Assembly: GCA_035221665.1 (NCBI GenBank)
Contig: CM069160.1
Coordinates: 34,348,001 to 34,412,000, forward strand
Source of the DNA: Okamejei kenojei
Lineage: Eukaryota
Direction: 5' to 3'
DNA length: 64,000 nt
The notes under the pieces were generated by a model. The model worked only from the letters and a program-made list of their open reading frames with translations. It was not told where the DNA came from and made no database searches. Shown here piece after piece: positions 8,666-8,790 of the stretch. A program made the translations under genes and the position numbers. The stretch's first letter is position 1. Each line of letters starts with the position of its first letter.

Positions 8666-8741
8666 GCCCTTGTGGAGGGTGTATAGTGATAAAAGGCCGA
8701 AACACCCAGTGATGCAAGGGTTCACTACTGATGATGTGTCC
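8666..8741 (+). ncRNA. Putative permuted/pseudoknotted hammerhead-like ribozyme with kink-turn (upstream repeat copy)
   Basis: GGGUG-UA (8677-8683) pairs with GAAA-CACCC (8699-8707); UAGUGA (8684-8689) pairs with UCACUA (8722-8727), followed by CUGAUGA (8728-8734); k-turn 8666-8676 / 8708-8721. Stem II is weak. Confidence 0.55.
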
Positions 8742-8790
8742 TGTGCCCAGCTGTCCTGAAGGTTACCCAGGCCAAGATATACGTATACGT

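What the first reader, a model, noticed from the sequence alone, without database searches (positions are those of the whole stretch)
8666..8745. Hammerhead core with shuffled (pseudoknotted) strand order plus a kink-turn in the 3' UTR of a HERO-like retrotransposon
SEEN: three strands carry the hammerhead core. Strand A is GGGUG-UA^UAGUGA (8677-8689; NUH triplet GUA, predicted cut after 8683). Strand C is GGCC-GAAA-CACCC (8695-8707). Strand B is UCACUA-CUGAUGA-UGUGUCC (8722-8741). Stem III (GGGUG/CACCC plus the U-A core pair) and stem I (6 bp) pair perfectly at the canonical registers. The order is A-C-B, which is not a circular permutation of A-B-C, so it is not type I, II or III. Stem III continues through a consensus kink-turn: 3-nt bulge AGU (8708-8710), G8711.A8676, A8712.G8675, U.G, G.U, then CAAGGG/CCCUUG. 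The distal end of that helix runs straight into stem I. KNOWN: hammerheads occur in Penelope elements and retrozymes, R2 elements use 5' HDV-like ribozymes, and k-turns bend helices sharply. INFERENCE: the k-turn folds the extended stem III back to reach stem I, and the short UAAAA linker joins the tips of stems I and II, making this topology feasible. Standard type I-III pattern searches would miss it. I know of no description of this architecture but cannot check the literature. WEAK POINT: stem II (UGUGUC vs GGCC) pairs only imperfectly, and its 5' strand has a stronger alternative partner upstream.
Basis: partly seen in the sequence, partly recalled or inferred. Interest (0 to 1): 0.95.

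Follow-up and report, generated by a model that had tools for sequence, protein, structure and literature searches.

The report
Re-wired hammerhead ribozyme in HERO-like retrotransposons
A family of jumping genes carries, just after its protein gene, a conserved RNA with all the catalytic letters of a hammerhead self-cutting ribozyme wired together in an unusual order; it likely cuts the element's RNA into single units that are predicted to close into circles and be copied round and round, which would explain the seamless head-to-tail arrays of this element seen in the genome.

Summary
The core is real. Its strand order is the published 'type SGC' permutation (Eckert 2023, known only from metatranscriptomes), but the wiring differs. 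Stem II pairs with an UPSTREAM strand (8662-65 with 8695-98), and A9 runs into a separate helix, giving a perfect four-way junction between A9 and G10.1. Covariation supports this: 25 of 29 non-redundant cores fit, against 1-18% in controls, as do 9 of 10 held-out cores. The core follows the ORF in 52 of 63 testable metagenome relatives (down to 34% protein identity), with none antisense or in shuffles. A k-turn consensus is present in 16 of 29. The element is a young RT plus restriction-like-endonuclease retrotransposon of about 4 kb (at least 880 ribozyme copies). It has a fixed, tail-less 3' end and forms seamless head-to-tail arrays that run through the cut site, with one haplotype per array. 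Two arrays carry the same blunt deletion, ending exactly at the predicted cut, in both units. Best reading: ribozyme cleavage, circularisation and rolling-circle target-primed reverse transcription. Cleavage and circles are untested; no raw RNA reads were available. The scan's notes held no earlier report of this.

The parts
8447..8938 (+). 5' terminal direct repeat = 5'-truncated end of an upstream unit (ORF C-terminus, ribozyme, poly-C, 3' end)
   Evidence: 98.6% and 96.7% identical to 12465-12930; unit positions 3527-3992
8447..8606 (+). C-terminal end of the RT/RLE ORF, stop codon 8604-8606
   Evidence: translation; matches the end of intact ORF P0001
8625..8635 (+). P0 helix 5' strand (pairs with 8735-8745), closes the whole ribozyme
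   Evidence: 11 pairs; covaries across families
8636..8661 (+). Hairpin arm of the four-way junction; contains the palindrome UGAUCA
   Evidence: closing pair abuts both P0 and G10.1 with no unpaired nucleotide in 25 of 29 cores
8662..8665 (+). Stem II 10.x strand (G10.1 = 8662), upstream of the core
   Evidence: covariation
8666..8676 (+). Distal helix 5' strand and non-bulged k-turn strand (G8675, A8676)
8677..8689 (+). Block S: stem III strand, NUH = GUA, predicted cut after 8683, stem I strand
   Evidence: genomic deletions end at this cut
8690..8694 (+). Linker from stem I tip to stem II tip
   Evidence: cut-to-G12 distance 12-17 nt in 29 of 29 cores
8695..8707 (+). Block G: stem II 11.x strand, GAAA (G12-A15.1), stem III strand
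8708..8721 (+). k-turn bulge AGU + GA, and distal helix 3' strand
   Evidence: k-turn consensus in 16 of 29 cores; distal helix 5-8 pairs in 15 of those 16
8722..8734 (+). Block C without its stem II strand: stem I strand + CUGAUGA
   Evidence: N7 varies (U17, A8, C3, G1)
8735..8745 (+). P0 helix 3' strand, directly after A9
8792..8830 (+). poly-C tract of variable length
8930..8945 (+). Head-to-tail junction (unit 3' end TTTGATTCT joined to unit start GAAAATC); inferred RT start site
   Evidence: identical in 43 of 44 junction hits, not deduplicated
8939..12930 (+). One full unit (3992 nt) of the retrotransposon; ORF about 9156-12624, frameshifted in this copy
   Evidence: intact copy P0001 from L161
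12643..12763 (+). Second ribozyme copy (predicted cut after 12701) with two 1-nt indels beside GAAA

Best explanation
This is a conserved hammerhead-type RNA, with S-G-C strand order and stem II formed by an upstream strand through a four-way junction, carried once per ~4 kb unit of a HERO-like RT/RLE retrotransposon; it likely self-cleaves after the NUH triplet so that transcripts of tandem copies yield unit-length RNAs, which are predicted to be ligated into circles that the element's own RT would copy by target priming from a fixed internal site and roll past one full turn. Shown by sequence: the core, the five covarying helices (I, II, III, distal, P0) and the hairpin arm, the fixed tail-less 3' end, the seamless multi-unit arrays with one haplotype each, and deletions ending at the predicted cut. 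Inferred: cleavage chemistry (by analogy with hammerheads), the bend at the k-turn that brings the stem III extension up to the tips of stems I and II, the ligation step (the monomer's head and tail would rebuild the fold and hold the 5'-OH and 2',3'-cyclic phosphate together; self-ligation or host RtcB), the covalent circle, and cap-independent translation. Odds by step: hammerhead that cleaves 0.9; upstream stem II with four-way junction 0.9; closed-loop template, covalent or held by pairing, 0.75; covalent circle 0.6.
For: Core on the sense strand in 42 of 78 metagenome loci (strict), all but two contig-wrapped or second-unit hits 3' of the ORF match; 0 antisense, 0 in 1.29 Mb shuffled. 10 more have one mismatch, giving 52 of the 63 loci with a hit or at least 250 nt of 3' sequence, down to 34% protein identity. 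1319 further matches from at least three other families in G000, reversed-pattern control 0. Variation falls where hammerheads allow it: NUH GUC 10, GUU 9, GUA 8, AUA 2; N7 free. Upstream stem II plus perfect four-way junction: 25 of 29, versus 149 of 812 (swapped G strand), 88 of 812 (swapped tail) and 10 of 870 (shuffled upstream); 9 of 10 held-out cores fit. On an unfitted MAFFT alignment of 26 cores the upstream stem II is 83% paired with 15 two-sided changes (0 of 500 shuffles), the canonical one 42% (223 of 500). 27 of 30 loci picked by the unit start have the unit end joined directly upstream, about 21 of them extending past the cut (some loci share an array). Arrays reach five or more units. 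Units of one array differ at 52 of 1753 diagnostic-site comparisons versus 33012 of 95493 between arrays. 3' flanks are unrelated and have no poly(A), and the next template base G is enriched beyond the end, 23 of 56 versus 0.18 background. Arrays L380 and L381 carry the same blunt 58- or 27-nt deletion ending exactly at the cut in both units. In the young family, 5 of 12 clean deletions have an end at the cut versus 1.07 expected, p = 0.002 (subset chosen after seeing the data). Head-to-tail or cycle-closing contigs occur in other organisms' relatives (record 18).
Against: No cleavage assay, no raw RNA reads, no direct sight of circles. Over all four families the deletion-end test is marginal: 8 of 48 versus 4.2 expected, p = 0.05, and 3 of 25 versus 1.1, p = 0.09, for low-homology events; its null ignores microhomology bias. 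Genomic 5' ends do not pile up at the cut: 0 of 9 hits of the cut-site pattern were true 5' ends, with only single cases near it (L145, L054, L058). A break between A9 and G10.1 has no tested precedent in the papers read (the PK hammerhead keeps A9-G10.1 joined), so activity could be low. Some arrays switch haplotype inside a unit (L180, L173, and the window's two repeats), showing recombination or template switching. Post-insertion unequal crossing-over also gives same-haplotype arrays. In a Penelope element, uncleaved RNA was the main substrate in vitro (PMC11167929). 11 of 63 testable relatives show no core and 4 of 29 cores do not fit the junction. Stem I and III pairing in the hit set is required by the descriptor, and relatedness among cores was not modelled.
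Confidence: 0.62

Rival explanations
1. The ribozyme cleaves, but the monomer stays nicked: its head and tail remain paired by stems I, II, III, the distal helix and P0, and the RT jumps across the nick (R2-like template jumping) on the same or a sibling RNA. This is a functional but not covalent circle.
For: Explains seamless arrays, one haplotype per array, scars at the cut repeated in both units and occasional haplotype switches. R2 RT jumps between RNA ends (recalled).
Against: In L380 the deletion removes the P0 strand, hairpin, stem II strand and block S, so little pairing would hold the ends, yet the scar is copied identically twice. Jumps are usually imprecise (recalled), whereas most copies cross the cut without change.
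Confidence: 0.17
2. Penelope-like linear route: uncleaved read-through transcripts of tandem copies are the templates, RT starts internally, and arrays are kept up by unequal crossing-over after insertion. The ribozyme only frees the element from host transcripts or helps cap-independent translation.
For: No pile-up of 5' ends at the cut. Unprocessed RNA was the main substrate for a Penelope element (PMC11167929 passages). Ribozymes can support translation initiation (PMC13725137 passages).
Against: Copies could never exceed their donor's length, yet 27 of 30 unit starts are extended and arrays reach five or more units. It does not predict blunt deletions ending at the cut.
Confidence: 0.15
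3. The fold is a non-catalytic 3' UTR element, a binding site for the RT protein, that resembles a hammerhead.
For: It lies about 230 nt from the RT start, where R2-type proteins bind their RNA (recalled); the A9/G10.1 break is untested.
Against: C3-A9, G12-A15.1, U16.1, H17 (never G) and G10.1:Y11.1 are all kept while every helix covaries; scars at the predicted scissile bond.
Confidence: 0.06

Closest known systems
Type-SGC hammerhead ribozymes (HRIMA-1 and variants; Eckert et al. 2023, PMC10085705; parts 1-6 of 8 of the text and supplement parts 1 and 8 of 42 read)
   Same: Same S-G-C order, short linker from stem I to stem II, about 5-bp stem I, full core. The paper notes cases where stem III's far end joins the stem I/II helix directly and leaves the geometry open.
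   Different: In SGC the 10.x strand follows CUGAnGA (block C is assumed uninterrupted) and an 'I' helix joins the flanks. Here the 10.x strand is upstream, A9 enters P0, and the stem III extension itself, often through a k-turn, joins stems I and II. 0 of 29 cores pass the stem II part of the published descriptor. SGC was found only in metatranscriptomes, none in genomes of known organisms.
Pseudoknot (PK) hammerhead (Zhan et al. 2024, PMC11300833; parts 1-2 of 6 read)
   Same: Helix II position supplied by a long-range pairing; core geometry unchanged.
   Different: A9, G10.1, C11.1 and G12 remain one short stem-loop; no permutation, no four-way junction.
Penelope-like elements with pLTR hammerheads (PMC11167929, PMC6765202; passages read)
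   Same: Partial-tandem organisation, ribozyme in the terminal repeat, internal RT start, circles proposed.
   Different: GIY-YIG endonuclease and telomerase-like RT, minimal type I hammerhead near the ORF start. Here RT plus restriction-like endonuclease and a large permuted ribozyme after the stop codon.
Non-LTR retrozymes (Cervera and de la Pena 2020, PMC7229834; bioRxiv 10.64898/2026.07.22.740005; passages read)
   Same: Hammerhead per unit, circRNA, tandem cDNA by RT on the circle.
   Different: 170-400 nt, non-coding, non-autonomous, type I. Here an autonomous unit of about 4 kb encoding its own RT.
R2 / HERO / NeSL / R4 restriction-like-endonuclease non-LTR retrotransposons
   Same: Single ORF with RT, CCHC knuckle and PD..E.K-type endonuclease; best solved relatives are R2 proteins (E 6e-24).
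   Different: R2 uses a 5' HDV-like ribozyme on a linear RNA and a fixed rDNA target (PMC6765202 passages). This element has no fixed target, no poly(A), and seamless arrays.

Membership tests
Hammerhead ribozyme | Core C3 U4 G5 A6 N7 G8 A9, G12 A13 A14 A15.1, U16.1 H17 | tested here: met
Hammerhead ribozyme | Three helices I, II, III around the core, with covariation and R10.1:Y11.1 | tested here: met
   (stem II through the upstream strand; G-C 23, G-U 2 of 25)
Hammerhead ribozyme | Site-specific self-cleavage after H17 | not testable with these tools
   indirect only: deletions ending at the site
Hammerhead types I, II, III | Circular permutation of blocks C, G, S | tested here: not met
   order is S-G-C; Rfam models give no hit
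Type-SGC hammerhead (Eckert 2023) | Block order S-G-C with short stem I-II linker | tested here: met
Type-SGC hammerhead (Eckert 2023) | Uninterrupted block C: stem II strand directly 3' of CUGAnGA(U) | tested here: not met
   first canonical pair in 6 of 29 (7 of 29 with one extra base); 42% paired, equal to shuffles; 0 of 29 pass the descriptor's stem II part
Kink-turn | 3-nt bulge followed by tandem G.A / A.G pairs between two helices | tested here: met
   this copy and 16 of 29 cores
Kink-turn | Kinked fold or L7Ae binding | not testable with these tools
   needs probing or binding assay
RLE-type non-LTR retrotransposon | Single ORF with RT, C-terminal CCHC knuckle and restriction-like endonuclease; 5'-truncated copies with fixed 3' end | tested here: met
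   (knuckle and PD..E..K motif read from alignment A1; motif definitions recalled)
HERO clade | RT phylogeny grouping with named HERO elements | not testable with these tools
no named HERO sequence was available; homologues are labelled R2DM-like or unnamed.
Non-LTR retrozyme | Short non-coding unit with type I hammerhead | tested here: not met
   3992-nt unit with 1118-aa open frame
Penelope-like element | GIY-YIG endonuclease, telomerase-like RT | tested here: not met
   only RVT_1 found in the ORF pieces and homologues' domain lists; closest structures R2 and L1

The most novel reading that the evidence does not exclude
A whole ancient clade of autonomous, protein-coding R2-related retrotransposons replicates through a 4-kb circular RNA, cut and closed by a previously undescribed hammerhead topology (catalytic core split between A9 and G10.1 by a perfect four-way junction, stem III bent back by a k-turn), and is copied by rolling-circle target-primed reverse transcription: a viroid-like life cycle inside a LINE, and a likely source of self-circularising mRNA and multi-copy gene insertion.
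Probability: 0.55. Interest if true: 0.93.

Novelty: new variant of a known kind. Interest (0 to 1): 0.87.

Why it matters
It breaks a stated design rule of the best-studied ribozyme, that CUGAnGA and its stem II strand are contiguous. It moves non-circularly permuted hammerheads from anonymous metatranscriptome contigs into thousands of copies in a 2.8-Gb genome and into a broad retrotransposon clade. It offers an answer to Eckert's open geometric question: a k-turn can bring stem III's tip to stems I and II. It gives an autonomous element in which the long-proposed circRNA-to-tandem-cDNA route can be tested directly with one protein and one RNA, and the genomic scars at the cut are a readable trace of ligation. 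A natural self-cutting module whose ends stay paired is of obvious use for making circular RNA.

Tried and rejected
Self-targeted insertion into the element's own junction: rejected, 3' flanks are unrelated and target duplications are rare. Independent insertions side by side: rejected, one haplotype per array. Extra U at the cut as a ligation mark: rejected, 3 of 64 insertion-bearing copies and no more than at other single bases, likely sequencing error. Pile-up of 5' ends at the cut: not found. Rfam: no family. Viral contigs: 9 pattern matches, no relative. Sequencing runs: no RNA holder listed on record, contigs only, so they say nothing on expression, ends or circles; one laying of contigs was answered and a second gave no result. 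A greedy stem II search picked wrong registers in some rows and had a weak control (56% of swaps reach 4 bp); it was replaced by the joint fit. mis-oriented the plus-strand loci and was superseded. Rows dropped before counts: 47 cores reduced to 29 non-redundant; 58 deletion matches reduced to 48 (9 with more than 2 mismatches, 1 array duplicate), of which 12 are family 1. The 26 rows of alignment A2 were picked by hand: 24 of the 29 non-redundant cores plus L186 and L256. Literature searches; none listed a ribozyme in HERO elements, a k-turn hammerhead in a retrotransposon, or an A9/G10.1 four-way junction. Not held, so unseen: Weinberg 2015, Lunse 2017 and Hammann 2012. The original HERO paper, Repbase entries and Fell 2025 were not seen either, nor the SGC alignments in Eckert's supplement; any of these could mention tandem HERO copies or a similar variant.

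Full report
1. Observation. Rfam finds no ribozyme in 3000-12000. The sixth stem I pair depends on T8722, private to this copy; the other 29 of 30 loci have A.

2. The order is published. In the block names of Eckert et al. 2023 (PMC10085705; parts 1-6 of 8 of the text read; supplement parts 1 and 8 of 42) the order is S-G-C. That type was shown to cleave in vitro, was found only in metatranscriptomes, and was defined on the assumption that CUGAnGA and its flanking paired bases stay contiguous. The paper also flags cases where the far end of stem III joins the stem I/II helix with no linker and leaves the geometry unexplained.

3. The element. The finding lies in a 490-nt direct repeat, 8447-8938, that recurs at 12465-12930. 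Between them is a frameshifted ORF with an RT domain. An intact copy gives 1118 residues (P0001) with a CCHC knuckle and a PD..E..K endonuclease motif (alignment A1; motif definitions recalled); its closest solved structures are R2 proteins. 496 homologues at E <= 1e-30 were found among 4241 candidates; named ones come from bony fishes, lamprey, amphioxus and a scallop. HERO membership could not be tested against named sequences. An exact 37-mer from the ribozyme's 3' half occurs 880 times in G000, and a pattern excluding this family finds 1319 more matches from at least three other families, with 0 for the reversed control.

4. Conservation. A metagenome scan with the C-terminal alignment gave 78 loci (the best 80 of 276 confirmed stretches). 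A strict S-G-C descriptor (core letters plus 4 bp in stems I and III) hit 42 of 78 on the sense strand, none on the antisense strand, and none in 1.29 Mb of shuffles. Of the 36 without a hit, 15 have under 250 nt after the ORF match, 10 carry a core with one mismatch, and 11 show none: 52 of 63 testable, in all identity bands down to 34%. Variation falls where hammerheads tolerate it: N7 is free and the triplet is GUC, GUU, GUA or AUA.

5. The true wiring. The bases 3' of A9 do not pair with the bases 5' of G12: the first canonical pair forms in 6 of 29 cores (7 with one base skipped), and on an alignment not fitted to any structure this helix equals shuffles (42%, 223 of 500). Instead the 11.x strand pairs with a strand 19-25 nt upstream of U16.1. 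In the window this is GGCC 8662-8665 with GGCC 8695-8698; relatives show GGGUC/GACCC, GCUCC/GGAGC, GAUGA/UCAUC, GGUGGC/GCCACC and GGCACA/UGUGCC, with G10.1 opposite C or U in all 25 fits. On the unfitted alignment it is 83% paired with 15 two-sided changes, 0 of 500 shuffles, and beats all slid registers. The bases after A9 form helix P0 with a strand further upstream, and between that strand and G10.1 sits a hairpin, with no unpaired base at the junction. This joint pattern fits 25 of 29 cores, against 149 of 812, 88 of 812 and 10 of 870 in three controls, and 9 of 10 cores not used to derive it, in all of which the canonical stem II has 0 pairs (some of the 10 are close to families in the first set). 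None of the 29 passes the stem II part of the published SGC descriptor, which would explain why that search missed them. The distal helix now has a clear role: its 3' strand runs into the tip of stem I and its 5' strand follows the tip of stem II, so it replaces the usual loop I-loop II contact while being the extension of stem III. A sharp bend is needed, and 16 of 29 cores have a consensus k-turn there; the others use different bulges. The bend itself is inferred. The PK hammerhead also supplies the helix II position by a long-range pairing but keeps A9-G10.1 joined (PMC11300833, parts 1-2 read). Perreault 2011 lists core insertions elsewhere (passages).

6. What it is for. Taking 8939-12930 as the unit, the predicted cut is 229 nt before the unit's end. 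Copies end at a fixed place, TTTGATT(C)(T)(G), with no poly(A), unrelated flanks and few target duplications. The next template base, G, is enriched beyond the end (23 of 56 versus 0.18; later positions not significant), as expected if priming is internal on an RNA that continues. Of 30 loci chosen by the unit's start, 27 have the unit's end joined directly upstream, and about 21 run on through the cut without a mark (several loci belong to one array). The junction is identical in 43 of 44 hits (not deduplicated). Arrays reach five or more units, and units of one array share a haplotype, 3.0% versus 34.6% mismatch at 45 diagnostic sites, with private alleles shared along the array. Three copies of other own-genome families with most of the ORF in view (L289, L294, L295, of 20 fetched) also have terminal repeats, and about a dozen metagenome contigs close a cycle, carry a far repeat at unit distance or place the C-terminus before the N-terminus. 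A linear RNA cut 229 nt from the RT start could not give such copies; a cut and re-joined one can.

7. Traces of cutting and joining. Genomic 5' ends do not pile up at the cut (0 of 9 hits; controls 1 of 2, 2 of 21, 0 of 0), and single-base insertions there are not enriched. Larger deletions are more telling. Of 9 matches lacking about 20 nt or more (7 events), 4 events end at the cut. Two arrays, L380 and L381, carry the same blunt deletion, 58 or 27 nt, ending exactly at the cut in both units: a unit with a dead ribozyme copied twice, as one trimmed and ligated circle would give. A four-family test is marginal (8 of 48 versus 4.2 expected, p = 0.05, profile peaking at -1 to +2); the young family alone gives 5 of 12 versus 1.07, p = 0.002 (chosen after the fact; null without microhomology weighting).

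8. Mechanism. Read-through transcription of a copy with two ribozymes likely releases a unit-length RNA. Its head (stem I, block G, distal strand, block C, P0) and tail (P0, hairpin, stem II, distal strand, stem III) would rebuild the fold and hold the ends together for self-ligation or RtcB. The ORF protein would nick DNA, prime at the fixed internal site, and roll round the circle, stopping at random; 3 of 30 loci and L146 stop within 20 nt of one full turn, where the RT would meet its own hybrid (inference). Rolling regenerates the two-ribozyme donors that the cycle needs. This is the route proposed for non-autonomous retrozymes (PMC7229834 passages) and speculated for Penelope elements (PMC6765202 passages), here in an autonomous R2-related element. 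Rivals are a nicked, paired monomer crossed by template jumping, and uncleaved multimers with later unequal crossing-over (compare PMC11167929 passages). Haplotype switches inside some arrays show that recombination or switching also happens.

9. Limits. Nothing was cleaved or seen as RNA: the run search listed only contigs. One laying showed relatives in four other organisms whose similarity peaks on the ribozyme, and one 3921-nt contig spanning the junction. Ten literature searches listed no report of this ribozyme or wiring; three relevant papers were not held, and Repbase and most of Eckert's supplement were not seen. Passages of PMC12192606, PMC13725137, PMC7650587, PMC13580325, PMC10162972 and bioRxiv 10.64898/2026.07.22.740005 did not describe it. 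The scan's own notes held no match by sequence and one loosely related note by words.

10. Verdict. Observation confirmed; interpretation partly right. A new topological variant of the hammerhead ribozyme, conserved across a broad clade of RLE retrotransposons, with good genomic evidence for a circular-RNA life cycle. Interest 0.87.

Noticed in passing
window 2276-8334: Endogenous retrovirus with 97.8% identical LTRs (2276-2924, 7686-8334) and broken pol and env; the env piece at 7015-7578 matches TLV_coat. It appears to be inserted in a LINE ORF1-like fragment (2050-2275, 8335-8446; recalled resemblance).
   Followed up: no
window 8646-8651 and the matching hairpin in relatives: The hairpin arm often carries a palindrome (GAUC in 6 of 25, GGCC in 6 of 25, GACGUC in some), which could allow kissing-loop dimers.
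   Followed up: partly
L200:217-7271: Two different elements, 71% identical, lie head to tail, each with its own ribozyme; either template switching between families or mis-assembly.
   Followed up: no
L180, L173+L174, window 8447-8938 versus 12465-12930: Haplotype switches within an array, pointing to switching between RNA templates or later recombination.
   Followed up: partly
window 8792-8830: Poly-C tract of very variable length between the ribozyme and the unit end in all near-identical copies; role unknown.
   Followed up: no
L212, L225, L221, L230: Four cores that do not fit the perfect junction; they appear to have a shifted or altered 10.1:11.1 pair and would test how much the junction tolerates.
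   Followed up: no
L260, L262, L267, L282, L301: Short copies of other families with the ribozyme but little or no ORF; L301 has two 144-nt repeats 534 nt apart. These may be non-autonomous retrozyme-like derivatives or plain 5' truncations.
   Followed up: no
L139/L140 and L096/L097: Pairs of loci with the same 5' junction and flanks: segmental duplications or assembly duplicates, not independent insertions.
   Followed up: partly
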